Below are positions 43,611 to 61,533 of a DNA stretch of 64,000 nucleotides, piece after piece. Both the position numbers and the translations under genes were made by a program. Under the pieces are notes generated by a model. The model had not been told where the DNA came from. It saw only the letters and a list, made by a program, of their open reading frames with translations, and did not search any database. The stretch is from the NCBI GenBank assembly GCA_964461035.1, contig CAYWRI010000003.1, forward strand, positions 3,213 to 67,212, written 5' to 3'. This stretch comes from an uncultured Methanosarcinales archaeon (GTDB lineage Archaea > Nanobdellota > Nanobdellia > Woesearchaeales > CAYZNE01). Every line of letters begins with the position of its first letter. The first letter of the stretch is position 1.

Positions 43611-43625
43611 TCTGTGTTGAATAGA

Positions 43626-44422: not shown

Positions 44423-45544
44423 TTAACTTATCAGTCTATTGAATTCTTCATAATATGCTGAAGAAATATCCTGATTGTGAATTATCAATAAGTTTTCAGA
44501 ATTCTTATTAAAACCATTATTTGAAAAATTAGGTGATCCTACTATTACAACTTCTTCGTCTATAACTATGAACTTGTGATGCATATTTCCTTTATTCGAG
44601 TCTTCATAAATTTCAACTCCTGATTCTTGAAGATAATTAAAAACTGAACCAAGACCATTTTTACTTTTTGATTCCATAACAATTCTAACATCAACTTGAT
44701 TATCTTGAGCAGAAATTAAAGCATCTGCAATATCTTTAGATGTAAAACTAAATATTGCAACAACAACAGAATATTTTGCTTGATGAATCAAGTCAACAAT
44801 TCTATTTATTGTAGAATCATGTGGTAAAAAATAATTCTCAATAATGTAATTATCATGGATAAAGTACTTTGTTATGTTTGGAGTTGTTCCATATTTTAAA
44901 TATTCAAATTCTGCTAAATAATTATTTTTTAGAATCTCGGATTTAATTACTATAAAATTATTATTATTTCTCCGTGTACCAAATTTGGTTGGATTCATGC
45001 TTCCTGTTAAAACAGTATTGTTATCTAAAATACAAAATTTATTGTGCATAACTCCTGAATTTCTCATAAACTTTTTGTTGGTAATATTTTCAAGTAAAAT
45101 ATCCTGTTCAAGTTGAATATCAAAAATCAAATCAGTATTTTTCTTTTCTAAAATAGAAACTAATGGTTTTAAATTAATATCATAAAATGCACAGGATATA
45201 TTTTCAGAAGAATTAATTGTTTTAATAAGACCAGCACTACAATTATTATAATTACAAAAATATAACTTTAATGGGCCATTATCAAACGCAAGACGATTAT
45301 AAATAGAGTTATTTGATGAATTATCTGTTGAATCAACAAAAGAATTATTCAATTCGTTAAATCTTGTTGAATTTGAATAAAAGCTCAAATTTAATAAATT
45401 CATACTGAATAAATTTATTGGTCGAGTTGAAAAAATGACTACCAAACTAATCAAAATAATAAAAAAAAATATTAAAATAAACATTAGTGATTTTGATATC
45501 TTTACTCTTTTTTTCTGGTTTTTCTTCATTTTATCTTTAATCAT
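44423..45544 (-). CDS. Phospholipase-D-superfamily protein with two HKD motifs and an N-terminal TM anchor
   Basis: HKD-1 'HNKFCILDNNTVLTGSMNPT', HKD-2 'HHKFIVIDEEVVIVGSPNFSNNG'. N-terminal 'LMFILIFFFIILISLVVIF'. Confidence 0.75.
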   Translation of the reverse strand: MIKDKMKKNQKKRVKISKSLMFILIFFFIILISLVVIFSTRPINLFSMNLLNLSFYSNSTRFNELNNSFVDSTDNSSNNSIYNRLAFDNGPLKLYFCNYNNCSAGLIKTINSSENISCAFYDINLKPLVSILEKKNTDLIFDIQLEQDILLENITNKKFMRNSGVMHNKFCILDNNTVLTGSMNPTKFGTRRNNNNFIVIKSEILKNNYLAEFEYLKYGTTPNITKYFIHDNYIIENYFLPHDSTINRIVDLIHQAKYSVVVAIFSFTSKDIADALISAQDNQVDVRIVMESKSKNGLGSVFNYLQESGVEIYEDSNKGNMHHKFIVIDEEVVIVGSPNFSNNGFNKNSENLLIIHNQDISSAYYEEFNRLIS

Positions 45545-45796
45545 ATTGTTAAATAATACAATGTGATAAGAATATCTCTGAATTTATATTTATCTGCTAA
45601 ACTTTTCTGAAATAATTTTGATATTATTCGAATATTTATTTTCAAAAAAGCCGACATCATAATTTATGTAAAAACTTGCTGTTAGTTATGCTGTTTCATA
45701 ATTCAAAGGCTTAAGTTAGGGTGCAAGTTGTTTCCATCATTAAGGGATAACAAAATAGAAAGTTTTATAAAATTAATTTAATTCTTTAGTGTTAAA

Positions 45797-46618
45797 ATGT
45801 TTCAATTACCTGTTTTAGAATTATATGCATCAGCAGAAGAAGATGATTCTGCACTTAAATTCACACAGGGTTTAGTAACTAAAGTTTTTGAATCTAAGGG
45901 TTTATTTCAAACAAATTCTACTCAAGAAAGATTAGAGTCTTTAGATATTACACATATTAATTCAGATACTGCTACTAAAATAGATAAAATAAATCCAAAT
46001 ATGAATAAGCTTCTTATAATTGCAGGTTCAAATATGCGTCATCAATCTACTTATCATTTTGTAAAATATTTTGCAGGACATTTAGATGATTTGGTTTATG
46101 TTCATTTTGATCTTCATCCTGATGCACATCCAAGCACTTTTCCTGCTGAATTAGCATTGGAATTAGATATTTCAAATTATTCAAGAAGAGATTTAGGGCT
46201 TGGAACTTTTGTTTATCCAATACTTGGTCTTCCTACAGTAAAAACGGCGGTAATGTTTGGATATAGAGATATTCCTGAAGAAAATAATTATAATCCTCAC
46301 AGGATATATTCTAAAGTTTTCGGTCCAGCTGAAATAGTTACAAAAGATGAACTTAACAAATATTTTAAAGGAAAAAACATTTATGTATCAATTGATGGTG
46401 ATGTATTGAAAGATTGGAAAGGATTTATGTGTGGAAATGGGAAAATGGAAACTGAAACTCTTATTGAAAATATAAATTTAATTGCAGAAGCTGGAAATCT
46501 TGTTGGTGTTGATTTAACAGGATTTGCCAGAACCCAATCTGAAACAATATCTATGCCTAAACAACTTATTTTACTGGGTGAATTAAGATTAGAATTATAT
46601 AAAATAATAAGTAAGTAA
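45797..46618 (+). CDS. Arginase/agmatinase/formiminoglutamase-fold (ureohydrolase) family protein, divergent
   Basis: 'HFDLHPDAH' (DxHxD metal-ligand motif) and 'VSIDGDVLKD' (SxDxD motif). The first GGDHS-type motif is divergent ('AGSNMRHQS'). Confidence 0.5.
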   Translation: MFQLPVLELYASAEEDDSALKFTQGLVTKVFESKGLFQTNSTQERLESLDITHINSDTATKIDKINPNMNKLLIIAGSNMRHQSTYHFVKYFAGHLDDLVYVHFDLHPDAHPSTFPAELALELDISNYSRRDLGLGTFVYPILGLPTVKTAVMFGYRDIPEENNYNPHRIYSKVFGPAEIVTKDELNKYFKGKNIYVSIDGDVLKDWKGFMCGNGKMETETLIENINLIAEAGNLVGVDLTGFARTQSETISMPKQLILLGELRLELYKIISK

Positions 46619-46761
46619 TTATTAGTCATATTCTTATTCATAATTTAAGTTAAGATATGTGTGTAATTGGAAACGTTTGTGATTAAATTTTCTTTAATTA
46701 TAATAAAATATTGATTTGAGTTCATAAAATATATAAAACAAATTTGAATTAGTTCTTAGTT

Positions 46762-48606
46762 ATGTGTGGAATATTCGGATATATTGGTTCTGAAGAAGCA
46801 GTTCCAATATTACTTAAAGGTCTTAAAAGATTAGAATACAGAGGTTATGATTCTGCAGGCATTGCATTAATAGATAAAAACTTAGTAATTACTAAAGTCA
46901 AAGGAAACCTAAATCTATTAGGTGAAAAACTTAAACTTGAAACTCATAAATCAAATATTGGAATTGCTCATACGAGATGGGCAACACATGGTGTTCCAAA
47001 TGAAATTAATGCACATCCTCATGTAAATGAATTAAAAACTATTTCAATAGTTCATAATGGAATAATTGAAAATTATAAAACCATAAAACAATATTTACAA
47101 AAAAAAGGTTATAACTTTTCAACAGATACAGATAGTGAAGTTTTGGTTCATTTAATAGATTATAATTATAAATTAAATTCAAACAATTTAGTTAATGCAG
47201 TGAAAAAATCCTTATTAATGATTGAAGGAACTTATGGTCTTGCGGTTTTATCAATTTATGAACCAGAAAAAATAATAGTTGCAAAAAAAGGAAGTCCTGT
47301 TATAATCGGGAAATCTGATAAAAATGAGTTCTTTATTGCAAGTGACGTGAGTGCAGTTATTGAATATACTAAAAACATAACTTTTCTTAAAGATGGAGAA
47401 ATTGCGGTTTTGGACAAAAAAGAAATAAAAATATTTAATCTTAATAATGAAGATTGTAAAGATCCAAAATATGAACAAGTAGAAATGGAACTTGAAGAAA
47501 TTGAAAAAAAAGGATTTGAGCATTTTATGTTAAAAGAAATTTATGAACAAGATAAAACTCTATTAAATTCACTTAGAGGAAGAATAAATACTGAAACAGG
47601 AAATGTTACATTAGGTGGATTAACTGATAAACTAGAAACACTAAAACATGCAAAAAGAATTATTCTTATTGCATGTGGAACATCATGGCATTCTGCTTTA
47701 ATTGGAGAATACTTATTAGAATCAATAGCGGGAATACCAACAGAAGTTGAATATGCAAGCGAATTCAGATATAGAAATCCGATAATTGAAGAAGGAACAG
47801 TTGTTTTTGTTATATCTCAATCTGGAGAAACTGCTGACACTTTAGCAGCATTACGTGAATCAAAAAATCAAAGTGCAACAGTCTTTGGGATTTGTAATGT
47901 TGTGGGTTCAAGCATAGCAAGACAAACTGATGCGGGAGTTTATATTCATGCAGGTCCTGAAATAGGTGTTGCATCCACAAAAGCATTTACATCACAAGTA
48001 ATTGTTCTTGTATTAATAGCAATTCTTCTTGGAAGACAAAGAAACTTATCTGAAGAAGAAGGGAAAAAATTAGTTAAAGAATTAAAAAATATTCCAAAAA
48101 AAATTGAAAGTGCTTTAAAATATTTAGATGAAAAATCAATTAAAAGAATTACTAAATTATTTGCAAATACAAATAATGCACTTTTTTTAGGACGAGGAAT
48201 TAATTATCCTGTTGCGTTAGAAGGTGCATTAAAAGTAAAAGAAATATCTTATATTCATGCTGAAGGTTATCCTGCTGCAGAAATGAAGCACGGTCCTATT
48301 GCACTAATAGCTGAAAACATGCCCTGTATTGTTATTGCAACAGAAGATTCAATGTATAATAAATTACTTTCAAATATTGAAGAAATAAAAGCAAGAAAAG
48401 GAAAAATTATTGTTATTGCAACAGAAGGTGATGAAAGAATAAAAGAACTTGCAACTGAAGTCATATATGTTCCTAAAACACTTTCTCTTTTATCACCTAT
48501 AATAAATGTTATTCCTTTGCAACTACTTGCATATTATCTTGCAAAAGAAAGAGGATGTAGTATTGACAAACCAAGAAATCTTGCAAAAAGTGTTACAGTA
48601 GAATAA
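46762..48606 (+). CDS. glmS: Glutamine--fructose-6-phosphate aminotransferase (isomerising), GlmS
   Basis: N-terminal nucleophile 'MCGIFGYIG', 'AHTRWATHG', two SIS domains, and a C-terminal '...KSVTVE' typical of GlmS. Confidence 0.92.
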   Translation: MCGIFGYIGSEEAVPILLKGLKRLEYRGYDSAGIALIDKNLVITKVKGNLNLLGEKLKLETHKSNIGIAHTRWATHGVPNEINAHPHVNELKTISIVHNGIIENYKTIKQYLQKKGYNFSTDTDSEVLVHLIDYNYKLNSNNLVNAVKKSLLMIEGTYGLAVLSIYEPEKIIVAKKGSPVIIGKSDKNEFFIASDVSAVIEYTKNITFLKDGEIAVLDKKEIKIFNLNNEDCKDPKYEQVEMELEEIEKKGFEHFMLKEIYEQDKTLLNSLRGRINTETGNVTLGGLTDKLETLKHAKRIILIACGTSWHSALIGEYLLESIAGIPTEVEYASEFRYRNPIIEEGTVVFVISQSGETADTLAALRESKNQSATVFGICNVVGSSIARQTDAGVYIHAGPEIGVASTKAFTSQVIVLVLIAILLGRQRNLSEEEGKKLVKELKNIPKKIESALKYLDEKSIKRITKLFANTNNALFLGRGINYPVALEGALKVKEISYIHAEGYPAAEMKHGPIALIAENMPCIVIATEDSMYNKLLSNIEEIKARKGKIIVIATEGDERIKELATEVIYVPKTLSLLSPIINVIPLQLLAYYLAKERGCSIDKPRNLAKSVTVE

Positions 48607-48612
48607 AAGAAA

Positions 48613-49053
48613 ATGGAATACAAAATAGTAGAACTAACAAAAGAAATTATGGCAAAAGATTTTCAAGGTTTTTGTGAAACACTTAATAATCTTAGATTGG
48701 TGGGAGAAATTACATTAGAAAAAGCAAAAACAACTCTTGACAAAATTAACTTACAAGACTCACACATTTTTGTTGCAATAGATGATAATTTTAAGATATT
48801 AGCAACAACAACAATCATGATAGAACAAAAATTTATTAGAAACAATGCATTAGCAGGTCATATTGAAGATGTTTCTACAAGAAAAGGTTTTGAAAAACAA
48901 GGACTTGCTACAATAGTTATAAATTCCGCAATAAATTATGCTAAATCTCGAGGTTGTTACAAAATAATTCTTGATTGCGAGAATGAATTAAAACTTTTTT
49001 ATTCTAAATTCGGTTTTAAAGAAGAAGGACTTTTTATGGCTCTAAGATTTTGA
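48613..49053 (+). CDS. GNAT acetyltransferase most similar to eukaryote-type glucosamine-6-phosphate N-acetyltransferase (GNA1)
   Basis: 'AGHIEDVSTRKGFEKQGLATIVINSAINYAKSRGCYKIILDCENELKLFYSKFGF' parallels GNA1 'GHIEDIAV ... GQGLG ... GCYKIILDC ... FYEKCGF'. It lies directly downstream of glmS. Confidence 0.6.
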   Translation: MEYKIVELTKEIMAKDFQGFCETLNNLRLVGEITLEKAKTTLDKINLQDSHIFVAIDDNFKILATTTIMIEQKFIRNNALAGHIEDVSTRKGFEKQGLATIVINSAINYAKSRGCYKIILDCENELKLFYSKFGFKEEGLFMALRF

Positions 49054-49113
49054 GTTTATTTTAGAAAAATAAGATGTAAAACCTTATAAACAATTAAATA
49101 TTTCACGAATAAC

Positions 49114-49728
49114 ATGAAAGCAATAACTTTATTTAGTCATGGAATAGATAGTCCTGTAGCTTCAAAAATATGTAATGATAAAGGGATAGATTTAATTGGT
49201 TTACATTTTTGTTCTAAAGCAATAAATAAAACTTACTTAGATAACCTAAAACAATTAGCTCAACTAAGTGGAATAAAAAAATTATATCTTGCAGATCAAT
49301 CACATTATCATAAAGAATATAAAAAAATATGCAATACGAGATTACAATGTGTTTTTTGCAAAAGAATGATGCTTAGAATTGCAGAAAAACTTGCAGAAAA
49401 AGAAAATTGTAAATTTATTGTTACGGGAGATAATTTAAGTCAAGTAGCAACTCAAACAATAGAGAATATGAGAGTTGTTAGTAGCGTAATTAAAAATAAA
49501 GACATAATTATTTTAAGACCAATTCTAACAAATGAAAAAAACGAAACAATAGATATTGCGAGAACAATAGGAACTTATGAATTTAATCTTAAATTTAAAG
49601 AAGGATGTATCTTCTTACCTAAATCTCCTGTTACAAGAACTAAAATATTGGTAATAGAAAAAGAAGAAAACAAACTCGATATAAATAATTTAGTCGAACA
49701 AACTATTAATGAACTTAAATTAATCTAA
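49114..49728 (+). CDS. ThiI-like PP-loop ATP pyrophosphatase domain protein (no THUMP domain)
   Basis: 'LFSHGIDSPVA' (PP-loop SGGxDSPVA with G replaced by H) and 'VTGDNLSQVATQTIENM' (ThiI 'TGESLGQVASQTLENL'). Confidence 0.55.
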   Translation: MKAITLFSHGIDSPVASKICNDKGIDLIGLHFCSKAINKTYLDNLKQLAQLSGIKKLYLADQSHYHKEYKKICNTRLQCVFCKRMMLRIAEKLAEKENCKFIVTGDNLSQVATQTIENMRVVSSVIKNKDIIILRPILTNEKNETIDIARTIGTYEFNLKFKEGCIFLPKSPVTRTKILVIEKEENKLDINNLVEQTINELKLI

Positions 49729-49740
49729 AAATTAAAAAAA

Positions 49741-50016
49741 TTATATTAACTCATCAATAGGAGGTTTTTTATTATTCTTATCTTCAGGAGCTTCTTGATT
49801 TTGTTTAGCATTAATTAAATTCTTTGCATCTGCTTCTAAATCAATACCTTCTTCTTTCAAAGCAGCAACATGCATTTTCATTATCTCTTCAACTATCTGT
49901 AAAATTCTTGATAGCTCTTGTCTTTCTTTAGCAAGAGTTGATAAAGATCCTTTGTGAAATCCTATTTTTTCATCTTTTGACATACTGTCAGTACCATTTG
50001 GGTTATTATCTACCAT
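49741..50016 (-). CDS. Small hypothetical acidic coiled-coil protein. The ATG at 50016 is preferred; the ORF track starts at a GTG at 50028.
   Basis: ORF immediately downstream of the wHTH gene. No motif. Confidence 0.3.
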   Translation of the reverse strand: MVDNNPNGTDSMSKDEKIGFHKGSLSTLAKERQELSRILQIVEEIMKMHVAALKEEGIDLEADAKNLINAKQNQEAPEDKNNKKPPIDELI

Positions 50017-50028
50017 TTTATTTATCAC

Positions 50029-50298
50029 CTATATAATTAATGAATCAATTCTGTGAATACTTTTTGCAATTTCTTCGCCTTTTTTTGTTAAAGTAATTAT
50101 TTTAAGTCTTCCTTTTTTATGAAAAGTAACAATTCCATTTGTTTCCATTGCCTGTAAAATTTTGACTATGTGGCTATAAGTGCAATCAATTTTTTTTGCA
50201 ATTGTAGAAGCATAAACTTCTTCAGGAGTGTTTATTAAAGCCAATAAAAGTTTTGCAGGCTTCTCCCGGAATATTAACGTAAACACTGATCTTTCCAT
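50029..50298 (-). CDS. Small winged-helix DNA-binding protein (ArsR/MarR-like)
   Basis: 89 aa. 'EVYASTIAKKIDCTYSHIVKILQAMETNGIV' is an HTH recognition helix, followed by a wing. Confidence 0.5.
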   Translation of the reverse strand: MERSVFTLIFREKPAKLLLALINTPEEVYASTIAKKIDCTYSHIVKILQAMETNGIVTFHKKGRLKIITLTKKGEEIAKSIHRIDSLII

Positions 50299-50473
50299 GT
50301 TTAGAATAGAAAAATAACTTATTTATAAAGCTTTTGATTGCAATTATGTTTGTCCTAACTTAATATTTTTTATTGTAAAAAACAATCATAACTTAATGAG
50401 TTTCTCACGTTTTAAAGACATTTCGTCACTTAAAAGTGAAAACTTTATAAATGCATTTTGATTCTTCTCTTTT

Positions 50474-50962
50474 ATGAATAAATGGGCTATTTACAATGTA
50501 ATATTAGTAATTGCGGTATTTATACTTGGAATTCTAATTAGTAATCTATTAAATGATAATCTATTATATTCTCCTTTTTCAAATCAAGAAGTTATAGAAC
50601 AAAATTCTCCTAATAATTGGATATCTGAAAATAAAATTCATGTATATGAAGATTATGTGATGCTTGATATAGGCGAATCAAATTTTATAGGATTTGAAGA
50701 TACTGGTTCAATGGACCCAACTTTTGATTCTGAGGCCAATGCATTAGAAATAATACCTAAAAGTGCATCAGATATAACAACAGGAGATATTATTTCATTT
50801 AAAGCAAAAGATGGTAAAACATATGTTCATCGAGTAATACAAACAGGAATTGATTCAGAAGGAAACTATTTTATTACCAAAGGAGATAACAATCCAAATC
50901 CAGATCCATACAAAATCTATTTTTCAGATGTTGTCGGGGTTGTCGTTGCAGTTTTCTATTAG
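50474..50962 (+). CDS. Type I signal peptidase (S26 family, archaeal Sec11-like)
   Basis: N-terminal TM anchor, 'TGSMDPTF' (GSMxP Ser nucleophile box), 'ITKGDNNPNPD' (GDNN box). Confidence 0.75.
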   Translation: MNKWAIYNVILVIAVFILGILISNLLNDNLLYSPFSNQEVIEQNSPNNWISENKIHVYEDYVMLDIGESNFIGFEDTGSMDPTFDSEANALEIIPKSASDITTGDIISFKAKDGKTYVHRVIQTGIDSEGNYFITKGDNNPNPDPYKIYFSDVVGVVVAVFY

Positions 50963-50990
50963 TTATTAGATTCTATTAATTTTTATAAGT

Positions 50991-53033
50991 TTAAACAGAA
51001 CTAATATTATTTTCTTTTTTTATTCGAATAACTGTATCTGCATAACTTTCAAGTTTTGGCTCGTGACTAACAATTATTATTTGAGACATATTTAATCTCT
51101 CTAAAACTTCTCTAACTCTATCCATTTGCTCAGATGAAAATCCATCAGTTGGCTCATCTAATATTAAAAAGTTTTTAGTATTAATTCCAGTCATAAAATT
51201 ATTTATTACTTTATTCAAAGATAATCTATATGCGAGAGCAACACTGGTTTTTTCTCCACCTGAAAGATTTTGTATATTTGCATCATAACCATTCTGTTCA
51301 ATCAGGGGTGTAAATGAATCATCCAAAATTACATTTAAATTATCATCTTCTATAAGAATATTAAACCACTCTTGAAAATATTCATTACATTCTTTTAAAA
51401 TATTAGCAATAGTATACTTTTCCATTGACTCCATTAATTGAATAAAAAAAGAATCAAGCCAATCTCTTAAAATAATTTTTTCTTTAATCCTATTTTGAAT
51501 CTTTATTTTTTCTTTAATCTTTTCTTCGACTTCTTTAAGTTTTTCAGATAAATTATCAATATCTTTTTTAATTTCTGCAAATTTAATTTCTAAACTTTTT
51601 AAAATATTATTTTCAGCTTTAAACTCATTATTCTTTTCTTCAAATATTTTTGAAATTTCCTTGTTTATTTTTTTAGACCAATTCAAAATATTATTATTTT
51701 CTGTTTCAATAAGTGTTAAATAATCTAAGGATTCTTTTTCATAATTTGTAAGTCTGAGCTTTTTTTCTTTAATAGAAGCTAACTTAAGCTTTTTTATTTC
51801 TGCATCACGAATAATCTTAAGATACTTTTCAATATCATTTTCTACTTTTTCAAGCTTTTCAGCAATTAAGGGAATATTAAGATTGATTTTTTCTTGTTTT
51901 TCTTTCCTTGCTTTTATTTTTTCAGATTCTTTAGCAAATATTTGTTGTTTATATTCATTACTCACAGTTTGACCGCATTTAGAACATATTTCTAAAGAAG
52001 TTATATTATCAATTATTTTTTGACTTTCATTGATTCTTGAATCTAAAATACCTTTTTTACTAATCATTTCATTATTTTTATTAATTATTTGAATTTTTGA
52101 TTCTTTTAAATTTTGAATTTGTGTCTTAAGCTCTTCAACATTAGGCAATTCTAAATTGGAAGTTTCACTTAATTCTTTTTTCAACAAACTTGTTATTTTA
52201 TTATTTGATTCAATTCTATTTTTCATAGATTCAAGTTTTGTTTTAGAAATTGCAATTTTTCTTTTTATATCGTTTTGTGTCTCTATATCTTGTTTAATTT
52301 CTAAAATTTCTTTATTTAGTTTTTCAATTATCTCTTTTCTTTCTATTATTTTACTTTCAGAATTATTATACAATTCTTTTAACTCTTCGATTTTAACTTT
52401 AAGTTCTTTTTGTTTCTCTTTTAGAATATTGATATCTTCAACATGTGATTGATCATTGCGAATTTTCGCATTAATTTCTTTTAGGTATAATGAGACATTA
52501 GATCTTATCAGTTTATATTTATCAAGATTGAAGATTTTTCTTATGATTTCAACTCTTGAATCAGGAGAATCAAATAAAATTTTTTTCATATCTTCCTGAG
52601 GAGTATAAACTGTATATCTGTAAATAAGTGCAGGACTTCTTGTTATAAATTCTTTAGGATAACCAAGTATTTCAAGTAATTTAGCTCGTAATTCTTGAGG
52701 TGTTAATTGAATTTCAAGATCATTCATTGTTAAACCGCATTCATCTTGATTAATCCCTCGAGAAGTTTTTTTAATATGTCTTTTTATTTTAATAATCTCA
52801 TTATTTACTTCAATTTCTAATTCAACAAAACCCTTAGTTGTTCCATATCTAAGAAGCGAACTTCCATCCACACTACCCTTTATAAAACCAAACAATGCAA
52901 ATTCTGTAGCGATAAGCAATGAAGTTTTTCCACTTCCAATGTCACCACTTAAAAGAATTATTTTACCATCTAGGTTTATCTCTTGAAATTTATATGTTCG
53001 TATGTTCTTTAGAACAATCCTCTTTATTTGCAT
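50991..53033 (-). CDS. Rad50/SbcC-family SMC-like ATPase with a CxxC zinc-hook (680 aa)
   Basis: Walker A 'LSGDIGSGKTSLLIATEFALFG'. Long heptad coiled coil with a central 'EICSKCGQTV' hook. Signature 'LSGGEKTSVALAYRL', Walker B 'LILDEPT', H-loop 'IVSHE'. Confidence 0.75.
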   Translation of the reverse strand: MQIKRIVLKNIRTYKFQEINLDGKIILLSGDIGSGKTSLLIATEFALFGFIKGSVDGSSLLRYGTTKGFVELEIEVNNEIIKIKRHIKKTSRGINQDECGLTMNDLEIQLTPQELRAKLLEILGYPKEFITRSPALIYRYTVYTPQEDMKKILFDSPDSRVEIIRKIFNLDKYKLIRSNVSLYLKEINAKIRNDQSHVEDINILKEKQKELKVKIEELKELYNNSESKIIERKEIIEKLNKEILEIKQDIETQNDIKRKIAISKTKLESMKNRIESNNKITSLLKKELSETSNLELPNVEELKTQIQNLKESKIQIINKNNEMISKKGILDSRINESQKIIDNITSLEICSKCGQTVSNEYKQQIFAKESEKIKARKEKQEKINLNIPLIAEKLEKVENDIEKYLKIIRDAEIKKLKLASIKEKKLRLTNYEKESLDYLTLIETENNNILNWSKKINKEISKIFEEKNNEFKAENNILKSLEIKFAEIKKDIDNLSEKLKEVEEKIKEKIKIQNRIKEKIILRDWLDSFFIQLMESMEKYTIANILKECNEYFQEWFNILIEDDNLNVILDDSFTPLIEQNGYDANIQNLSGGEKTSVALAYRLSLNKVINNFMTGINTKNFLILDEPTDGFSSEQMDRVREVLERLNMSQIIIVSHEPKLESYADTVIRIKKENNISSV

Positions 53034-53187
53034 TAATCCAAGAAAGACCTTTATTCTTATAAATTTTGCTTTTATGATATATTAATAATAAAACATATTT
53101 AATTTGAACTTTGAGACCTTAATTCAAATCTTTGCAGAGTTCTTTTCTTACCAAAAATTTAAATAGTTCAATAAATTTAAATATTAT

Positions 53188-53634
53188 ATGAAAAAAGTTT
53201 TATGGTATGATTATATGATGACTTATACTTATACTAAAGACTGTATAATTGTCAGAGAAATAAAAGAATTGTTAAATAAAGAATCTGATTTTGAAATAGA
53301 ACTATTTCATTATATTAATCCTTTTCAGGATGAAAAGTCTGAAAAATACATTTCTGATTCAACAACTGATAGAATATATTGTAGAGATACTCCTAAGTAT
53401 CTTAAACGAGCAATAGCAAGACATAATCCTGCAGTTCTCTTAATACATCCGGGTTGGATTTTTCAGAAGCATCTTGGTGAATTACATGAGAAATATCCTG
53501 AAATGCATATTGGTTTACTTGTTAAGGGTGGAGAGTGTCCTGATATGTCTATTTATAATGAACTAGAAGTTCTTCCTGCTGATAATGCTGAAAAACAATT
53601 AGAATATATTCTAAAAGTATTGAAAAATGAGTAA
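53188..53634 (+). CDS. Hypothetical protein
   Basis: 148-aa ORF; no motif recognised. Confidence 0.35.
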   Translation: MKKVLWYDYMMTYTYTKDCIIVREIKELLNKESDFEIELFHYINPFQDEKSEKYISDSTTDRIYCRDTPKYLKRAIARHNPAVLLIHPGWIFQKHLGELHEKYPEMHIGLLVKGGECPDMSIYNELEVLPADNAEKQLEYILKVLKNE

Positions 53635-53923
53635 TTTTGTGATTTAATTCTTTTTTGAATTATTAGAATAATTGAAAATAACTAAAACTTCCTAATTATA
53701 ACTGGTTTATTGGTATTTTTCAGCATTATTTATTATAAACCCTAAGAAGCCCACAACGAGTTGCGAGCTTCCCGGGAAAAAGAGGTGAGTAGAATTTATT
53801 CTATTTGATGGAAATCAGATTGCCTATATAAATCTTTTGTTTTGTTTTTATTTAAAAATAGTAACAGAATGAGATAAACCTGAAATAATCTATAAAAAAT
53901 GAAATTTAAAAAGAACAAAAAAC

Positions 53924-54331
53924 CTATTTTTTCTTTGATTTAGTTGCTTTTAGTTTTTTAGTGATGCCCATTTTGTGATTGCATTTTTCACAATTAAAAA
54001 TTACGGCCTTAGTTCCAAGAAACGATTTTCTCTTAAAGGGCGCTTGAGTTTTACCAGAAAACCCGCATTCAGGGCAAGTATATTCAATATTACATGTTAG
54101 TAAATCTTCATATTCTTCAATAGGTGCACTATAACCACATTCAGGACAAACATATTCTTTCGCTCTAGTTTTGAATCTTCCAGTTTTAGGATTGATTGGC
54201 TTTCCCATTAGTCCTTTTTTACATTTAGGACATAATTCTCTAAAAACCCAGGCTCTCACTTTAAATTTATCGTGTTCTCTAATTGTTATATATACTAATT
54301 CTTTCATTGATTCAGGTTCTTTTAATTCCAT
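53924..54331 (-). CDS. Zinc-ribbon protein (four CxxC pairs)
   Basis: 'CPKCKK', 'CPECGY', 'CPECGF', 'CEKCNH'; a Lys-rich C-terminus. Confidence 0.45.
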   Translation of the reverse strand: MELKEPESMKELVYITIREHDKFKVRAWVFRELCPKCKKGLMGKPINPKTGRFKTRAKEYVCPECGYSAPIEEYEDLLTCNIEYTCPECGFSGKTQAPFKRKSFLGTKAVIFNCEKCNHKMGITKKLKATKSKKK

Positions 54332-54625
54332 TCATAACACCTCAAAAAGTTTCTGCTTTAAGTACAGTTTTTTATTCAAACTCTTCTCTTTTATATAATT
54401 ATTGATTTCTGCATCGGTCAGATGTCCATAATTCTTAGGTATGATACTAAGTTCTGAAGCTAATCTTCGATTTAGCCAGATTTTTTGTGAATCCATTGTT
54501 TTTTTAGGTTTTTTAATACATTCAACTTCCATAAGAATACCTTTGAATCTATGACCTTCAAAAGGTGAATGTTCATGAACATCTGCAACTTCTGCACTTT
54601 TTATTTTACATACAATTGTAGTCAT
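54332..54625 (-). CDS. Hypothetical protein (97 aa)
   Basis: ORF abutting the zinc-ribbon gene (a TGA stop immediately followed by ATG in the same frame). Confidence 0.35.
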   Translation of the reverse strand: MTTIVCKIKSAEVADVHEHSPFEGHRFKGILMEVECIKKPKKTMDSQKIWLNRRLASELSIIPKNYGHLTDAEINNYIKEKSLNKKLYLKQKLFEVL

Positions 54626-54770
54626 GCCTTTCCATTAGCTAATTCCATTTAAATACTTTTTTCTATAATGATATTAATAATAGATCCATTGCCTTCATAA
54701 ATATTTTTTAATCTTTTTTAAACAATTTATTATCGCAGATTTTATAAATTATTAATAATCTCACTAACTT

Positions 54771-55898
54771 ATGAATCAAAAAGATGCTGATTATCAGTTG
54801 AGTATGAAAGAGAGAAGAAAGCTTAAAGAATTTGTTAAAGAGTTATCAAAATACAAAGGAAGACACACAGAGCTTGTTTCAGTTTATGTTCCCGTAGGTT
54901 ATGACCTTGTGAAAATAACTCAACATCTTGAGCAAGAGAAAGATACAGCGAGCAATATAAAAAGTGCTTCTAATAGAAAAAATGTTCAAGAGGCTCTTGA
55001 AAAAATGATTCAATATTTAAAAACAATTGTGGTAAAAACACCCAAACACGGTCTTGCAGTTTTTGCAGGAAATATTGCTGAAAGAGAAGGTCAGTATGAT
55101 TTTAAGGTTTGGGCAATAGAACCTCCTGCACCAATGAATCAAAGATTATATAGATGTGATAAAGAGTTTATTTTAGATCCTTTAGAAGAGCAAGTAGAAG
55201 ACAAAAATGAATATGGCCTTGTAGTTCTTGATAGCAGGGATGCAACTATTGCAATTCTTAGAGGAAAAACAATAATTCCTATAAAAACAACTCATTCAGA
55301 GGTTCCAGGAAAAATGAGAGCTGGAGGACAATCTGCTCCGAGATTTCAAAGATTAAGAGCTGGAGCCCAAAATGATCACTTTAAAAAAATAGCAGATTAT
55401 ATGAAAGATGAATTTCTTCCAAGACAATATCTTCAAGGAATCATAATTGGTGGTCCAGGTACTACTGTAAATACTTTTTTAAATAGACATCACATAACGG
55501 GAGATGTTGAAAAAAAAATAATAGGTGTCAAAGATTTATCTTATACTGGAGATTTTGGTTTAAGAGAATTAGTAGATAAAAGTGATGATATTCTTGCAAA
55601 AGAAGACATAGTGCGTGAAAGGACTCTAATGAAAAAGTTTTTTGTTATGCTTTCAATAGAAGAAGGTAAAACATCTTATGGTAAAGATAAAGTTATGGAA
55701 TTACTAAAACAAGGTGTTGTTGATACAGTAATAGTTTCTGAAGCTTTGGACGATAAATTTCTTGATGAATTTGAAAAAGAAGCAGTTAAAGTAGGTTCAA
55801 ATGTTGAAATAATATCAACAGAAACCGCAGAAGGCGTTCAACTTCGAGATATGGGAAAAGTTGTTGCCATTCTTAGATTTGATTTAAATCATTCTTAG
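54771..55898 (+). CDS. prf1: Peptide chain release factor aRF1 (eRF1 homologue)
   Basis: Stop-codon-recognition 'TASNIKS' motif and catalytic 'RAGGQSAPRFQR' (GGQ); three-domain length. Confidence 0.9.
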   Translation: MNQKDADYQLSMKERRKLKEFVKELSKYKGRHTELVSVYVPVGYDLVKITQHLEQEKDTASNIKSASNRKNVQEALEKMIQYLKTIVVKTPKHGLAVFAGNIAEREGQYDFKVWAIEPPAPMNQRLYRCDKEFILDPLEEQVEDKNEYGLVVLDSRDATIAILRGKTIIPIKTTHSEVPGKMRAGGQSAPRFQRLRAGAQNDHFKKIADYMKDEFLPRQYLQGIIIGGPGTTVNTFLNRHHITGDVEKKIIGVKDLSYTGDFGLRELVDKSDDILAKEDIVRERTLMKKFFVMLSIEEGKTSYGKDKVMELLKQGVVDTVIVSEALDDKFLDEFEKEAVKVGSNVEIISTETAEGVQLRDMGKVVAILRFDLNHS

Positions 55899-55922
55899 TT
55901 ATGTGTTATTTTCATAGAATAT

Positions 55923-56435
55923 CTAATTATGTTGTTGAGGTTTAGGTGTGCAAACACATACTTTCTCATAAGATATATCATTTTTATCTAAGAACCCTAT
56001 TGCAATTTGTTCTAATTGACTTTTATCTGTTTTATCCAGAACTAGAATCATGAGATTATTTTTATCGTTTCCATTAAATTCAGGAATACACACAAAATCA
56101 TCTAAGTTATTACCATAAAATTCTTCCTCAGTCACATTTCTGGCAAGGTGACCTCTATCTACTGCAATTTTATAACTTTCAGTTGTTTTAGAATATAAGT
56201 ATCTGCTAAGTGCATTTATTTTATTTTCAAGAAAGTAATTAATAACTTCTGTGTCGAACAGGGCATCATTATTTACTCCAACAACATGAATAGTTTCTCC
56301 TTTATGCAAGATTATTTTTTCCCTCCATTGTATTCTCTCTAAGTTTTTCACTTGTTTTAAACATAGGTAATCTGAGATTGGATTTATACAATAATTTGGA
56401 AATTTTTTAGTAAGATTAGATATTACATTTTTCAT
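55923..56435 (-). CDS. Small DNA/RNA non-specific endonuclease-like protein (EndoG/Serratia-nuclease His-Me finger 'DRGH' motif)
   Basis: 'KIAVDRGHLARNV ... YGNNLDD' matches the DRGH active-site box plus a downstream Asn of the NUC family. It is shorter than typical members and has no signal peptide. Confidence 0.45.
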   Translation of the reverse strand: MKNVISNLTKKFPNYCINPISDYLCLKQVKNLERIQWREKIILHKGETIHVVGVNNDALFDTEVINYFLENKINALSRYLYSKTTESYKIAVDRGHLARNVTEEEFYGNNLDDFVCIPEFNGNDKNNLMILVLDKTDKSQLEQIAIGFLDKNDISYEKVCVCTPKPQQHN

Positions 56436-56520
56436 TTTTTTTAATCTCTTTTAAAATAAATATTTTTAAATTTCATAAACTATATAAAGTTATCTTGTTT
56501 CATATTAGTTAGGTGATAAT

Positions 56521-57375
56521 ATGAAAATATTTCTTGACAGTGCAAATTTAGATGAAATTAAAGAAGCTTTTTCCTGGGGAATAATTGATGGTATAACAAC
56601 AAATCCTTCTTTAATGAAAAAAGCAATTAACAGCTTGAATTCAAAAGGTTCTAATGTTAATATGTTAAATTATATTGAAGATATTCTTAAAATTGCAGGC
56701 AGTAATCATTCTGTTAGCTTAGAAGTAATAAGTCTTACTGAAAAAGAAATGTATTCTGAAGCAAAAATATTATATGATCAATTTAATAAAATTGTAGACA
56801 ATGTTTCAATTAAAATTCCAATATGCACTGCTAAAGATGTAAGTTCAATTAATTTTGATGCATTGAAAGTTATAAAAAAATTAGCAGATGAAAACATTTC
56901 TGTAAATGCAACTTTGATTTTTAATCCAGAACAGGCTCTCTTAGCCGCAAAAGCAGGAGCAAAATTTGTAAGTCCTTTCTTAGGTAGAATCGATGATTTA
57001 TTACGAATTGAAAAACTAGATCTGAAAAAAGTATCAGCTCCTGTCACGGATAAAGAATTTGCAGGACAGGATTATTATCCTGCAGAAGGAGTATTTATAG
57101 AAAAAGGAATGGCTGAAGATAATGGAATCATAAGTGGTATTGATTTATTAAGTCAACTAATTACAATATTTGACAATTATGAATTTGATTGTCAGATAAT
57201 CGCTGCATCTGTTAGAAACTCAAGACAAGCAAGAGAATCAGCTCTTGAAGGTGCAGATATAGCAACACTTCCTTTTACTGTAATAAAAGACATGCTTTGG
57301 CATAAAAAATCTGCAGAAGGAATAATTGCTTTTGAAAACGATGTTGTTCCAGAATACAAAAAACTGTTTGACTAA
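56521..57375 (+). CDS. Transaldolase / fructose-6-phosphate-aldolase family protein with a roughly 40-aa insertion
   Basis: 'MKIFLDSANLDEIKEA ... GITTNPSL', Schiff-base Lys in 'VSIKIPIC', and 'FVSPFLGRIDD'. Confidence 0.75.
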   Translation: MKIFLDSANLDEIKEAFSWGIIDGITTNPSLMKKAINSLNSKGSNVNMLNYIEDILKIAGSNHSVSLEVISLTEKEMYSEAKILYDQFNKIVDNVSIKIPICTAKDVSSINFDALKVIKKLADENISVNATLIFNPEQALLAAKAGAKFVSPFLGRIDDLLRIEKLDLKKVSAPVTDKEFAGQDYYPAEGVFIEKGMAEDNGIISGIDLLSQLITIFDNYEFDCQIIAASVRNSRQARESALEGADIATLPFTVIKDMLWHKKSAEGIIAFENDVVPEYKKLFD

Positions 57376-57383
57376 TTTTATAT

Positions 57384-58013
57384 TTATTTTTCTATTAAAT
57401 TATTTTTAACAAGAAATATTTTAATCAATTCATACATTTTCTCATATCCTTTAGAGTTTATATGTAATCCATCATCTAATAATTCAGTATAATTTGATTT
57501 AGAAAACTCTTGAAATATGTCAAGAAAAGGTATATTATTTTTTTCACAAATTTCTTTAATTGTGTTATTAAACTCATTTATTCTATTATTTGAGAACACC
57601 GTTTCTTCGTAGTTTTTGCAGATTTCTTCATCAACAGGAGTTAATCCTATAAAAGTAACCTCCTCAGTAAACTTTTTTGCTTTTTTGCATAATTTTATTA
57701 TGTTCTTTCTGAATTGAGCAATTTTTGTATCGTACAATTTATTTGGAAAACTTAATCTAGAATCATTCAGCCCTATCGCAATTATAATTATGTTTCTATC
57801 CTCAGATCTAAGAAATTTAATTCTTGCTTTTGCTTCGCAATCAAATCTTTTTAATAAGGTCTTTGTTGTGTCTCCACAGATACTTAGATTCTGAAGGCAG
57901 TTATAATAATCTTTAACTTCAAAATATTTTCTTAATCTTCCGCACCAACCCCTATTAAGATTGTCTCCTCTTCCAAAACTTATACTATCTCCAAATACAC
58001 ATATTTGATACAT
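57384..58013 (-). CDS. SGNH/GDSL-family hydrolase
   Basis: Block I 'VFGDSISFG', block III 'IGLNDS', and a C-terminal 'DGLHIN' (DxxH). Confidence 0.7.
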   Translation of the reverse strand: MYQICVFGDSISFGRGDNLNRGWCGRLRKYFEVKDYYNCLQNLSICGDTTKTLLKRFDCEAKARIKFLRSEDRNIIIIAIGLNDSRLSFPNKLYDTKIAQFRKNIIKLCKKAKKFTEEVTFIGLTPVDEEICKNYEETVFSNNRINEFNNTIKEICEKNNIPFLDIFQEFSKSNYTELLDDGLHINSKGYEKMYELIKIFLVKNNLIEK

Positions 58014-58073
58014 AATCGTAATTTGTCTTTATTGTAATATAAATCTTTTGTATTATTTTAGATTTATTATCAA

Positions 58074-58787
58074 TTAAACAAGTTCTATATTCATATTAGA
58101 ATAATTTTCAAGAATAATTCGCTTCAGAGTTTCTAAGAACTGGTTTGATGGTGGTTCTATTTTCTTAAATAGTTCAGCATTGTCTTCAGGATTAAATTTT
58201 TCTAATTCCCAAACACATTTCAAATCTTTAATAATTTTTGCGAGTTCAAGAAAAACCTCTTTTCTGTAAACAGATCCTGGAACAATCAGTGTTCTAAAAA
58301 TTATATCTACTTCTTTATCATATTCTTTCAATAAATTAATACTTTCTATTATTTCAAAATATGTTTTTTCTGCAGATTCAAAAAAAGTTCCTGCTTTTGT
58401 TATTTTTTTAAAATTTTCTTGAGATGTTATTAAATCAAAAACAATAATATCAAAAAAACTCTTTTGTAAAAAATACTTTAATACATCCGATTTTGTTCCA
58501 TTTGTTTTTAGAGCTATTTTAATTTTCATTTTTTTACAAAAATCTATTAATTCAATCATTGCTTGTTTTTGAAGAAGTGGTTCTCCACCTGAGAATAGTA
58601 TTACTGTTGGTTTTAATTTAATAAGTTCCTCTTTAAATAATTTTAATTCTATGAGTGCTTCAGAACGGAATTCAAAATACTTTGAATTTTTGAAAACACA
58701 ATTAATTTTATTACCATAAAAGTTTATTTCATAAGCTCCTTCAATAATTTTACTGGGTAAAATCTGCTTATCAACATATGCTTGCAT
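58074..58787 (-). CDS. Radical-SAM-activase-like (QueE/NrdG/PflA-type) fold protein lacking the CxxxCxxC cluster motif
   Basis: 'VILFSGGEPLLQ' is the GGEP SAM-binding motif. There is only a single Cys in the N-terminal 60 aa and no CxxxCxxC anywhere. Confidence 0.4.
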   Translation of the reverse strand: MQAYVDKQILPSKIIEGAYEINFYGNKINCVFKNSKYFEFRSEALIELKLFKEELIKLKPTVILFSGGEPLLQKQAMIELIDFCKKMKIKIALKTNGTKSDVLKYFLQKSFFDIIVFDLITSQENFKKITKAGTFFESAEKTYFEIIESINLLKEYDKEVDIIFRTLIVPGSVYRKEVFLELAKIIKDLKCVWELEKFNPEDNAELFKKIEPPSNQFLETLKRIILENYSNMNIELV

Positions 58788-58915
58788 AATACTCTAGAAG
58801 TATTAACTATTATATAAATGCTTTCAGTTTTTTTTTTGAGACCAACTCTTCATTTCAAAAGATATTTAAATAAGTAATATTTAGTTTAGTTAAATCCAGT
58901 AATGGGGGTGCAAAT

Positions 58916-59464
58916 ATGACAAATTGGTTGTTGATAGGAATTATAGTTCTTGTAGTTTTAGTTATAATAGGAATTTACAATGTTCTAGTAAGATTAAATA
59001 ATAGAGTAAAAAACGCTTGGTCTCAAATAGATGTTCAACTAAAGAAAAGATATGATTTAGTACCCAATCTTGTTGAAACTGTAAAAGGATATGCTAAGCA
59101 TGAAAGTGAACTTTTCTTAAAAGTTACCACTGCGCGTTCAGAAGCATACAAATCTAGTAAGATTAGTGATAAAATAGGGAACAATAATAAATTTTCAGCT
59201 TTAGTAGGTCAAATGCTTGCAGTAGCAGAAAATTATCCTAACTTAAAAGCTGATCAGCATTTTTTAAAAATGCAAGAAGATTTAAATGGCATTGAATCAA
59301 AAATTGCTTATGCACGACAATTTTATAATGACGTGGTTGAGCAGTTTAATACAAAAACACAGCTTTTTCCTAATAATCTTTTTGTAAAATTATTTGGTTT
59401 TGAAAAATATGTGTTCTTTGAAGCAAAAAAAGAAGAAAGAGAAAATGTTAAAGTAAAGTTTTAA
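58916..59464 (+). CDS. LemA-family membrane protein
   Basis: N-terminal TM plus '[35 protein letters not shown]', the LemA signature region. Confidence 0.8.
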   Translation: [182 protein letters not shown]

Positions 59465-59506
59465 TTTTTTTCTATTTTTTTGATTATTTAACTTAAGTTA
59501 TATACT

Positions 59507-61532: not shown

Positions 61533-61533
61533 T

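What the first reader, a model, noticed from the sequence alone, without database searches (positions are those of the whole stretch)
50991..53033. Orphan Rad50-like zinc-hook ATPase with no adjacent Mre11/HerA/NurA
This protein has all Rad50 hallmarks: Walker A/B, Q-loop region, 'LSGGE' signature, H-loop, and a central CxxC hook within a coiled coil. At 680 aa it is short, and it is not next to an Mre11 phosphoesterase gene. The neighbours are a signal peptidase and a 148-aa hypothetical. Archaeal rad50 is almost always in a mre11-rad50(-herA-nurA) operon. A solitary short Rad50-like gene may work with a distant Mre11, or may belong to an SMC-like defence or maintenance system with a novel partner (possibly the neighbouring 148-aa ORF).
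Basis: partly seen in the sequence, partly recalled or inferred. Interest (0 to 1): 0.5.

Follow-up and report, generated by a model that had tools for sequence, protein, structure and literature searches.

The report
Ordinary DPANN Rad50, unlinked from mre11
This gene is a genuine, short and divergent Rad50 DNA-repair ATPase typical of Woesearchaeota-like archaea. In about a third of related genomes it sits directly behind mre11, so its isolation here is a common operon split, not a new system.

Summary
Positions 50991..53033 (-) encode a 680-aa protein with all the ABC-ATPase motifs and a central CxxC hook, and there is no Mre11, HerA or NurA in the 64-kb window.

The protein belongs to a large, length-conserved family of about 680-690 aa. 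At least 579 GTDB species genomes of Woese-, Pace-, Nano- and Aenigmatarchaeota carry a relative.

- Sequence profiles, a head-domain tree, a PDB profile search and an AlphaFold/Foldseek comparison all place it with Rad50.
- It does not group with SMC or with ASRP/ClsN/Sph, and its match to a defence LmuB model is generic to the whole clade.
- It forms a distinct Rad50 subclade together with the "Rad50" of Nitrosopumilus maritimus and an Odinarchaeote.

Of the 80 related loci, 27 carry an Mre11 gene. In 22 of them it abuts the rad50 start on the same strand, often with ATGA overlaps. Linkage is specific to certain clades, and the window's clade and many others are unlinked.

Solitary Mre11 genes are equally common in Woesearchaeota. 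One contig carries both genes 5.7 kb apart.

The 148-aa neighbour is an orphan ORF and not a conserved partner.

Verdict: an ordinary, divergent Rad50 orthologue with a split operon. I could not verify Mre11 in this particular genome.

The parts
50991..53033 (-). rad50 gene: a 680-aa Rad50 ATPase of the DPANN 'GDIGSGK' subclade
   Evidence: ORF. Best NCBIfam hits are Rad50 models. PDB profile best hits are M. jannaschii and P. furiosus Rad50. Foldseek top hits are Rad50. Tree placement. Orthologues are fused into mre11-rad50 operons.
52524..53033 (-). N-terminal ATPase lobe (aa 1-170), including Walker A GDIGSGKT (52923..52946) and Q-loop TPQE (52593..52604)
   Evidence: Motifs, coordinates, AF2 secondary structure, invariant columns.
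51999..52523 (-). Ascending coiled-coil arm (aa 171-345) with a break at aa 289-299. The conserved base (R160, F168, DKYK 171-174, N179) is the expected Mre11-binding region.
   Evidence: AF2 model. The base residues are conserved alike in Mre11-linked and unlinked family members.
51960..51998 (-). Zinc-hook loop (aa 346-358), with CSKC at 51975..51986. The family consensus is CPxCxQxV..(E)HK.
   Evidence: CxxC in 85 of 85 members. This profile segment matches the P. furiosus Rad50 zinc-hook structures 1L8D and 6ZFF at E of about 1e-7.
51354..51959 (-). Descending coiled-coil arm (aa 359-560), with a matching break at aa 455-459
   Evidence: AF2 model.
50994..51353 (-). C-terminal ATPase lobe (aa 561-680): signature LSGGE (51252..51266), Walker B/D-loop FLILDEPTDGFS (51135..51170), H-loop VSHE (51060..51071)
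53057..53063 (-). TTTATAA, 24-30 nt upstream of the ATG. Possible archaeal TATA box giving the gene its own promoter and a leaderless or short-leader mRNA. This is inference only.
   Evidence: Sequence read directly. No experimental or statistical support.
53188..53634 (+). Divergent 148-aa orphan ORF. It is a neighbour and not part of the system.
   Evidence: No Pfam, NCBIfam, PADLOC or PHROG hit. No homologue in 178 loci. One weak relative in 1.84 billion representatives.
50474..50962 (+). Convergent archaeal signal peptidase I. The neighbourhood is kept only in the closest relatives, and the gene is functionally unrelated.
   Evidence: TIGR02228 above its cut-off. 51-57% identical homologue in the same position in L005-L008.

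Best explanation
The gene encodes the Rad50 orthologue of a low-GC (about 27%), Woesearchaeota-like DPANN archaeon.

Inferred mechanism, from established Rad50 biology: two protomers engage their ATPase heads around ATP. Their roughly 170-residue antiparallel coiled coils are joined by a shared Zn2+ at the CxxC hooks. An Mre11 nuclease dimer docks on the base of the coiled coil. Together they sense, tether and process DNA double-strand ends.

Shown here: the protein belongs to a Rad50 subclade in which mre11-rad50 is a translationally coupled operon in some clades. In other clades, including the window's, the two genes have been separated. There rad50 sits alone among housekeeping genes, probably with its own promoter.

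Inferred, not shown: Mre11 is encoded elsewhere in this genome.
For: 1. Identity as Rad50.
- The best NCBIfam hits are five Rad50 equivalog models (up to 126 bits, E 1e-36). ASRP scores 84 bits, arcadin-4 55, SbcC 49 and SMC 19.
- A family profile searched against the PDB gives M. jannaschii Rad50 3AUX at 8e-35 and P. furiosus Rad50 3QKU at 3e-29. The hook segment hits the Pf zinc-hook structures 1L8D and 6ZFF.
- The AF2 model (pLDDT 85) gives Rad50 as the top Foldseek hits: 7ZR1 at 5e-22 and 3AV0 at 1e-17 with TMt 0.76.
- On the published 232-column SMC-superfamily alignment (PMC9389158 supplement), the head is 47-48% identical to the 'Rad50' of Odinarchaeota OLS18745.1 and N. maritimus WP_012215596.1. 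It is 22-32% identical to other archaeal Rad50 and 15-24% to ASRPs.
- NJ with 500 bootstraps: family plus Odin plus Nmar 100%; ASRP and SMC each 100% monophyletic and excluding it; all Rad50 plus the family 62%.

2. Partnership with Mre11 at the family level.
- Of 80 GTDB species loci, 27 carry an Mre11 homologue (E 1e-18 to 1e-34 against PfMre11).
- In 22 loci it lies directly upstream on the same strand. For the 21 measured junctions, stop-to-start distances run from -20 to +43 nt and include ATGA overlaps.
- In 4 loci there is a 0.5-1 kb insert. In 1 locus (L041) both genes are on one contig 5.7 kb apart, with S15, a DHH/Cdc45-like protein and MetAP between them.

3. Linkage follows clades, and the window's cluster is unlinked.

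4. Linked and unlinked members share 109 conserved positions, including the coiled-coil base, with only one fixed difference.

5. The reciprocal pattern holds.
- A solitary Woesearchaeota Mre11 clade has more than 3,600 proteins.
- None of 85 such loci has a rad50 within 10 kb.
- One example is in the complete genome CP010425.1.

6. The context is housekeeping, and no viral-contig relatives were found.
Against: - No Mre11 could be shown for this genome, because only 64 kb is visible.
- I could not place a solitary Rad50 and a solitary Mre11 in the same assembly, except on the L041 contig.
- The protein scores far below the curated Rad50 equivalog cut-offs (126 against 700 bits).
- Its placement inside, rather than beside, the canonical Rad50 radiation has only 62% NJ support.
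- The window protein deviates at 20 of 146 highly conserved family columns, the most in the sample. These include P351S and H361Y in the hook motif, although most changes are conservative.
Confidence: 0.8

Rival explanations
1. A Rad50-derived protein that has lost its Mre11 partner in the unlinked clades. It would now act alone, or with another partner, for example as a zinc-hook chromosome organiser in the manner of ClsN/ASRP.
For: - 48 of 75 evaluable loci lack mre11 nearby.
- No Mre11 is present in the window.
- Co-occurrence in a single genome was shown only for L041.
- ASRPs show that solitary zinc-hook SMC-like proteins exist in archaea with no conserved neighbours (PMC9389158).
- The window protein is the most divergent of its family sample.
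Against: - Unlinked and linked members are almost indistinguishable at conserved positions, including the coiled-coil base.
- Solitary Mre11 genes are abundant in organisms carrying the same Woesearchaeota labels.
- L041, which sits in an otherwise unlinked cluster, keeps both genes.
- Woesearchaeota already have a canonical SMC.
Confidence: 0.08
2. An LmuB-type SMC-like ATPase of a Lamassu-like anti-phage defence system, or another defence ATPase, with an unrecognised effector nearby.
For: - PADLOC LmuB model PDLC03859 matches the full length (97.6 bits, E 2.6e-28), and mad3 matches at 82 bits.
- Foldseek finds Salmonella Lamassu LmuB 9HQU at 7e-14.
Against: - The same LmuB model scores higher (98-147 bits) on family members fused into mre11-rad50 operons, so the match is a generic resemblance of this Rad50 clade.
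- None of the five neighbouring ORFs scanned has a PADLOC hit to a Lamassu or other effector component. The only matches are weak winged-helix-type hits on the 89-aa and 95-aa ORFs.
- The neighbours vary between lineages and are housekeeping genes.
- The gene is present in at least 579 species genomes.
- No viral-contig relatives were found.
- Rad50 structures score better than LmuB.
Confidence: 0.02
3. A member of the archaea-specific SMC-related protein family (ASRP: ClsN/coalescin, Sph1/2).
For: - NCBIfam ASRP model NF045487 aligns end to end (84 bits, E 7e-24).
- ASRPs also carry a zinc hook, are about 600-700 aa long and have no conserved neighbours.
Against: - The score is below the cut-off (84 against 300 bits).
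- Head identity to ASRPs is 15-24%.
- ASRP is 100% monophyletic and excludes the family in the NJ tree.
- The catalytic motifs are the intact Rad50 type (LSGGE, DEPT), unlike the degenerate ASRP signature (LSxSE) seen in the published alignment.
- Orthologues are operonic with mre11.
Confidence: 0.01

Closest known systems
Archaeal Rad50 of the Mre11-Rad50 complex (P. furiosus, M. jannaschii; PDB 3QKU, 3AV0, 1L8D)
   Same: - Bipartite ABC head with all motifs.
- Antiparallel coiled coil.
- CPxC-type zinc hook.
- Best sequence-profile and fold matches.
- mre11 directly upstream in many orthologues.
   Different: - About 200 aa shorter (680 against about 880 aa, the latter taken from the NCBIfam model lengths of 872-895). 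The coiled-coil arms are therefore shorter.
- Distinctive motif variants: GDIGSGK Walker A, YRYTVYTPQE Q-loop region, DEPTDGFS D-loop.
- Only 22-32% head identity.
- Fails the curated equivalog cut-offs.
- In this genome it is not next to mre11, herA or nurA.
'Rad50' of Nitrosopumilus maritimus (WP_012215596.1) and Odinarchaeota (OLS18745.1), as used in Yoshinaga et al. 2022 (PMC9389158)
   Same: The same motif variants, 47-48% head identity, and a 100% bootstrap clade with the window family.
   Different: They come from other phyla. Their full lengths and gene neighbourhoods were not examined here.
ASRP family (ClsN/coalescin, Sph1/Sph2)
   Same: Solitary archaeal SMC-superfamily ATPases with a zinc hook and no hinge.
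   Different: A separate, fully supported clade. They have degenerate signature and Walker motifs and no Mre11 linkage.
Lamassu LmuB (PADLOC PDLC03859; PDB 9HQU)
   Same: A Rad50-like head plus coiled coil of similar length, with a full-length HMM match.
   Different: There is no LmuA or LmuC partner and the context is housekeeping. The resemblance is shared by mre11-linked orthologues.
Bacterial SbcC and phage SbcC-like proteins (TIGR00618; phrog_77)
   Same: The same superfamily and function class. phrog_77 matches at 136 bits and JGI names several relatives 'SbcC'.
   Different: The TIGR00618 match covers only the N-terminal 195 aa (49 against 478 bits). The organism and the partner Mre11 are archaeal.

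Membership tests
Rad50 (Mre11-Rad50 complex ATPase) | Split ABC-ATPase head with Walker A, Q-loop, signature LSGG, Walker B, D-loop and H-loop | tested here: met
   All motifs are present and invariant across the family. The head lobes fold as in Rad50.
Rad50 (Mre11-Rad50 complex ATPase) | Long antiparallel intramolecular coiled coil with a CxxC zinc hook at its apex and no hinge domain | tested here: met
   AF2 helices 171-345 and 359-560 with CSKC in the apical loop. CxxC is present in 85 of 85 members. The hook profile hits PDB 1L8D and 6ZFF. Zinc binding itself was not tested.
Rad50 (Mre11-Rad50 complex ATPase) | Closest to Rad50 among SMC-superfamily proteins by sequence, tree and fold | tested here: met
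   Caveat: the NJ tree uses 232 columns, and the node joining the family with all Rad50 has 62% support.
Rad50 (Mre11-Rad50 complex ATPase) | Score above the curated NCBIfam Rad50 equivalog cut-offs | tested here: not met
   The best score is 126.3 bits against a cut-off of 700 (NF003034). These models are built on about 880-aa euryarchaeal and crenarchaeal Rad50. This is a failure of the annotation rule and not a biological criterion.
Rad50 (Mre11-Rad50 complex ATPase) | Partnership with an Mre11 nuclease (operon or complex) | tested here: inconclusive
   Met for the family: 27 of 75 evaluable loci carry mre11, 22 abutting the rad50 start with translational coupling. Not met locally: there is no Mre11 in the 64-kb window. 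The rest of this genome is not available.
Rad50 (Mre11-Rad50 complex ATPase) | ATP-dependent DNA-end tethering and stimulation of Mre11 nuclease | not testable with these tools
   Requires biochemistry.
ASRP (ClsN/Sph) | Membership of the ASRP clade, or NF045487 at 300 bits or more | tested here: not met
   84 bits. The ASRP clade excludes the family at 100% bootstrap, and head identity is 15-24%.
Lamassu LmuB | Encoded next to an LmuA effector and an LmuC | tested here: not met
   The neighbouring ORFs scanned give no PADLOC hit to a Lamassu component. Contexts across 91 loci are housekeeping or mre11. The model match is generic to the clade.
SMC (condensin-type) | Hinge dimerisation domain between the coiled-coil arms, and SMC_N or TIGR02168 above cut-off | tested here: not met
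   There is no hinge, only a 13-residue hook loop. SMC_N scores 19 against 40 bits and TIGR02168 scores 19 against 567. The SMC clade excludes the family at 100% bootstrap.
Arcadin-4 | NF053563 above 860 bits | tested here: not met
   55 bits, covering the N-terminal 195 aa only. Arcadin-4 sequences were not included in my tree.

The most novel reading that the evidence does not exclude
In the window's own lineage, and perhaps in other unlinked Woesearchaeota clades, Mre11 has been lost. The conserved zinc-hook Rad50 then works without a nuclease partner, for example as a DNA tether or chromosome organiser, or with a non-homologous partner. That would be a natural Mre11-independent Rad50.
Probability: 0.07. 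Interest if true: 0.6.

Novelty: new member of a known kind. Interest (0 to 1): 0.15.

Why it matters
The main value is for annotation and comparative genomics.

- **Missed by curated models.** This short Rad50 subclade is found in DPANN and shared with Nitrosopumilus and an Odinarchaeote. It scores far below the curated Rad50 model cut-offs and is deposited mostly as "AAA family ATPase" or "SMC family ATPase". Pathway surveys could therefore wrongly score these reduced genomes as lacking Rad50.
- **Operon context is unreliable here.** The mre11-rad50 operon, treated as near-universal in archaea, is split in most of the Woesearchaeota-like lineages sampled. Mre11 tends to stay near a HerA-like ATPase. 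Operon context cannot be used to confirm or exclude Rad50 in these organisms.
- **No new mechanism.** Nothing here suggests a new mechanism.

Tried and rejected
- **Regex for the Mre11 motifs.** A pattern D.H...GD...GNH[DE] found no Mre11 in 91 loci. This was a false negative, because DPANN Mre11 has GSHD in motif III. phmmer with PfMre11 then found the genes.
- **Biopython NJ bootstrap.** It timed out and was replaced by a numpy NJ. An earlier MAFFT --auto run also timed out.
- **Placing Mre11 in the same assembly as a solitary Rad50.** I tried this in several ways.
  - An Mre11 profile search returned mostly Pacearchaeota operon-type proteins.
  - A search with the L041 Mre11 returned the solitary Woesearchaeota type, but no "longest contig" matched any Rad50 contig.
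  - Five look-ups (P0313, P0284, P0246, P0266, P0282) all landed in assemblies not among my Rad50 loci.
  - Metagenome Mre11 loci from the same JGI sample series as a close Rad50 relative (L163, L164, L171) could not be looked up.
- **The window's own contig.** The exact-protein look-up found only a 3.2-kb contig. The window's genome is not among the 80 best-matching species loci returned by the GTDB representative scan, whose closest hit is 47% identical.
- **Literature.** Searches for DPANN or Woesearchaeota with Rad50 or Mre11 found nothing specific. The hinge-less oceanic SMC clade of PMC12153180 lacks a CxxC and is a different family.
- **Promoter and terminator scan.** The bacterial-type scan is uninformative in this AT-rich archaeon.
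- **Rejected family assignments.** ASRP, LmuB, SMC, SbcC and arcadin-4 memberships were considered and rejected (see the membership test).
Full report
**Observation.** The window is AT-rich (GC about 0.25-0.31) and carries archaeal housekeeping genes. These include a ribosomal-protein cluster with SecY, FtsZ, eIF2-alpha, ProRS, GlmS, aRF1 and ribosomal protein L15e.

Positions 50991..53033 (-) hold an ATG-initiated 680-aa ORF. It has these motifs:
- Walker A GDIGSGKT at aa 30
- Q-loop TPQE at aa 144-147
- a single CxxC (CSKC) at aa 350-353
- LSGGE at aa 590
- FLILDEPTDGFS at aa 622-633
- VSHE at aa 655-658

The flanking genes are a convergent archaeal signal peptidase I and a divergent 148-aa ORF with no family hit. 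No Mre11 is detectable anywhere in the 64 kb. No HerA or NurA turned up among the 38 ORFs scanned.

**What the protein is.**
- Only the generic AAA_23 model passes its threshold in Pfam.
- In NCBIfam the top five hits are Rad50 equivalog models (up to 126 bits, E 1e-36), all far below their cut-offs of 700-1087 bits. They are followed by ASRP (84), arcadin-4 (55) and SbcC (49).
- A search of 5.8 billion proteins found more than 1,000 relatives. The top 120 are almost all 680-690 aa long. They are labelled Woesearchaeota or Nanoarchaeia "AAA/SMC family ATPase", or "SbcC/Rad50" by JGI.
- Across 120 of them the hook reads CPxCxQxV..(E)HK. CxxC is present in all 85 members from species-level loci.
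- A family profile against PDB sequences gives M. jannaschii Rad50 (8e-35) and P. furiosus Rad50 (3e-29) as the best hits. The central segment independently matches the Pf Rad50 zinc-hook crystal structures (1L8D and 6ZFF, about 1e-7).
- An AlphaFold2 model built on 46 sequences (mean pLDDT 85) shows two head lobes, an antiparallel coiled coil with matched breaks (aa 289-299 and 455-459) and a 13-residue hook loop.
- Foldseek ranks Rad50 first (7ZR1 at 5e-22; 3AV0 at 1e-17 with TMt 0.76). This is ahead of Smc5/6, MukB, cohesin and Lamassu LmuB.

**Discriminating Rad50 from ASRP.** Yoshinaga et al. 2022 (PMC9389158) describe ASRPs (ClsN, Sph) as archaeal zinc-hook SMC-like proteins with no conserved gene neighbourhood. 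That made them the main rival.

I took 32 sequences from their published 232-column SMC-superfamily alignment and added the heads of the window protein and eight relatives.
- The window head is 47-48% identical to two sequences the authors class as Rad50: Odinarchaeota OLS18745.1 and Nitrosopumilus maritimus WP_012215596.1. Both share its unusual motif variants.
- It is 22-32% identical to other archaeal Rad50, 15-24% to ASRPs and about 18-25% to SMC.
- In an NJ tree with 500 bootstraps, the family plus these two sequences form a 100% clade. ASRP and SMC are each 100% monophyletic and exclude it. The clade sits among the Rad50 sequences, and the node uniting all Rad50 has 62% support.

The protein is therefore a member of a distinct Rad50 subclade and not an ASRP or an SMC.

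**Is it really orphan?** In six lineages inspected through called-gene tables, the gene was always solitary among variable housekeeping genes. Only the signal peptidase is retained, and only in the closest relatives (47% identity).

A scan of one genome per GTDB species found at least 579 genomes with a relative, and 80 loci were returned. I verified my recalled P. furiosus Mre11 sequence against PDB 1II7. Searching all ORFs of the loci with it found an Mre11 homologue in 26 loci. A 27th, truncated copy appeared with an HMM.
- In 22 loci mre11 lies directly upstream of rad50 on the same strand. For the 21 measured junctions, stop-to-start distances run from -20 to +43 nt and include four ATGA overlaps. 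This is a classical translationally coupled mre11-rad50 operon.
- Four loci have a 0.5-1 kb insert between the genes.
- In L041 the two genes lie 5.7 kb apart on one contig, separated by S15, a DHH/Cdc45-like protein and methionine aminopeptidase.
- Forty-eight loci have no mre11 within the available flank of 1.5-10 kb, and five are truncated.

Linkage follows the Rad50 clusters. Four clusters (Pacearchaeota-like, Aenigmatarchaeota-labelled and two others) are linked. The window's cluster and about ten others are not.

Linked and unlinked proteins share 109 conserved positions, including the coiled-coil base where Mre11 docks in solved complexes (established knowledge). They have a single fixed difference.

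**Does Mre11 persist where the operon is split?**
- A search with the L041 Mre11 retrieved more than 3,600 proteins of about 400 aa, labelled Woesearchaeota or Nanoarchaeota SbcD/Mre11.
- A metagenome scan with their alignment gave 80 loci. None of 85 such Mre11 loci has a rad50-like gene within 10 kb.
- One of these loci lies in the complete 1.16-Mb genome CP010425.1.
- In five of the six contexts inspected, these solitary mre11 genes sit one or two genes from a DUF87 ATPase. The one copy scanned (L094) best matches HerA models. In three of those contexts the genes are followed by PRK-like, AlaX and GatB genes.

Solitary rad50 and solitary mre11 are thus reciprocal, abundant states in organisms with the same taxonomic labels. 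Presence of Mre11 in this genome is therefore an inference, with an estimated probability of about 0.8-0.9.

**Defence or novel-partner reading.**
- PADLOC gives a full-length match to one LmuB model (97.6 bits). The same model scores 98-147 bits on four family members that are fused into mre11-rad50 operons. The match reflects a general resemblance of that LmuB subtype to this Rad50 clade.
- The neighbouring ORFs scanned have no Lamassu or effector hit.
- There are no relatives in 2.9 million viral contigs.
- The 148-aa ORF has no homologue in 178 fetched loci. In 1.84 billion representatives it has only itself plus one weak relative (E 1.5e-7). It is a lineage-specific orphan and not a conserved partner.

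**Mechanism.** The mechanism is inferred from Rad50 biology. ATP-driven head engagement and Zn-hook-mediated joining of the short coiled coils work together with an Mre11 dimer encoded elsewhere. The complex recognises, tethers and processes DNA ends. A TTTATAA element lies 24-30 nt upstream of the ATG. It is consistent with an independent promoter and a leaderless mRNA, but this is only a reading of the sequence.

**Verdict.** This is an ordinary, divergent Rad50 orthologue. Its shortness and its solitude are both typical of its lineage. Novelty is limited to membership of a poorly annotated Rad50 subclade and to the clade-specific decay of the operon.

Noticed in passing
L026, L048, L054, L081, L087 and others (alignments A2, A3); for example L081:8788-10017: DPANN Mre11 proteins have an invariant G-S-H-D in phosphoesterase motif III where canonical Mre11 has GNHD. 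A standard motif regex therefore misses them.
   Followed up: partly
L094 (CP010425.1:272815-282029), L177, L179-L184: In five of six inspected contexts, solitary Woesearchaeota mre11 sits near a DUF87 ATPase. The L094 copy best matches HerA models (101 bits, below cut-off). In L094, L179 and L184 mre11 is followed by PRK-like, AlaX and GatB genes. Mre11 seems to stay with HerA while rad50 moved away.
   Followed up: partly
window 50991..53033 and L026, L059, L081, L087 rad50 genes: PADLOC LmuB model PDLC03859 aligns over the full length of this Rad50 clade (98-147 bits). This hints that one Lamassu LmuB subtype is derived from, or was modelled on, this kind of short Rad50.
   Followed up: partly
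PMC9389158 supplementary alignment; compared with window 50991..53033: The 'Rad50' of Nitrosopumilus maritimus (WP_012215596.1) and of an Odinarchaeote (OLS18745.1) share the GDIGSGK, YTxQE and DEPTxGFS motif variants. They form a 100% bootstrap clade with the DPANN family, apart from other archaeal Rad50.
   Followed up: partly
L039, L040, L047, L057, L061, L070, L075, L077, L078, L082, L086: Eleven of 85 family members are 740-824 aa long. The extra length comes from balanced insertions in both coiled-coil arms on the hook side of the joint, so coiled-coil length varies within the family.
   Followed up: partly
window 51975..51986 and the surrounding hook motif: The window protein's hook is CSKC...EYK where the family has CPxC...EHK (P351S, H361Y). 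It has the most deviations in the sample (20 of 146) from columns conserved at 90% or more, mostly conservative changes.
   Followed up: partly
window 15537..18770 (+), 38234..41053 (-), 12051..13004 (-), 55923..56435 (-), 9673..10551 (+): ORFs of 1077, 939, 317 and 170 aa have no Pfam or NCBIfam hit. A 292-aa ORF also has no Pfam hit.
   Followed up: partly
window 53924..54331 (-) and 54332..54625 (-): A 135-aa protein with several CxxC zinc-ribbon motifs has a 50% identical homologue about 7 kb from rad50 in L002. The adjacent 97-aa ORF has no hits.
   Followed up: no
window 53188..53634 (+): The 148-aa ORF is essentially an orphan. In 1.84 billion representative proteins it has only an identical copy and one 139-aa relative (38% identity, E 1.5e-7).
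   Followed up: yes
window 1..64000: ARAGORN finds no tRNA gene in the whole 64-kb window.
   Followed up: no
record titles (for example L018-L021, L024, L025): Many public MAGs that carry this DPANN-type Rad50 are titled 'uncultured Methanosarcinales archaeon'. Their closest relatives are Woesearchaeota or Nanoarchaeota, so these labels are probably wrong.
   Followed up: no
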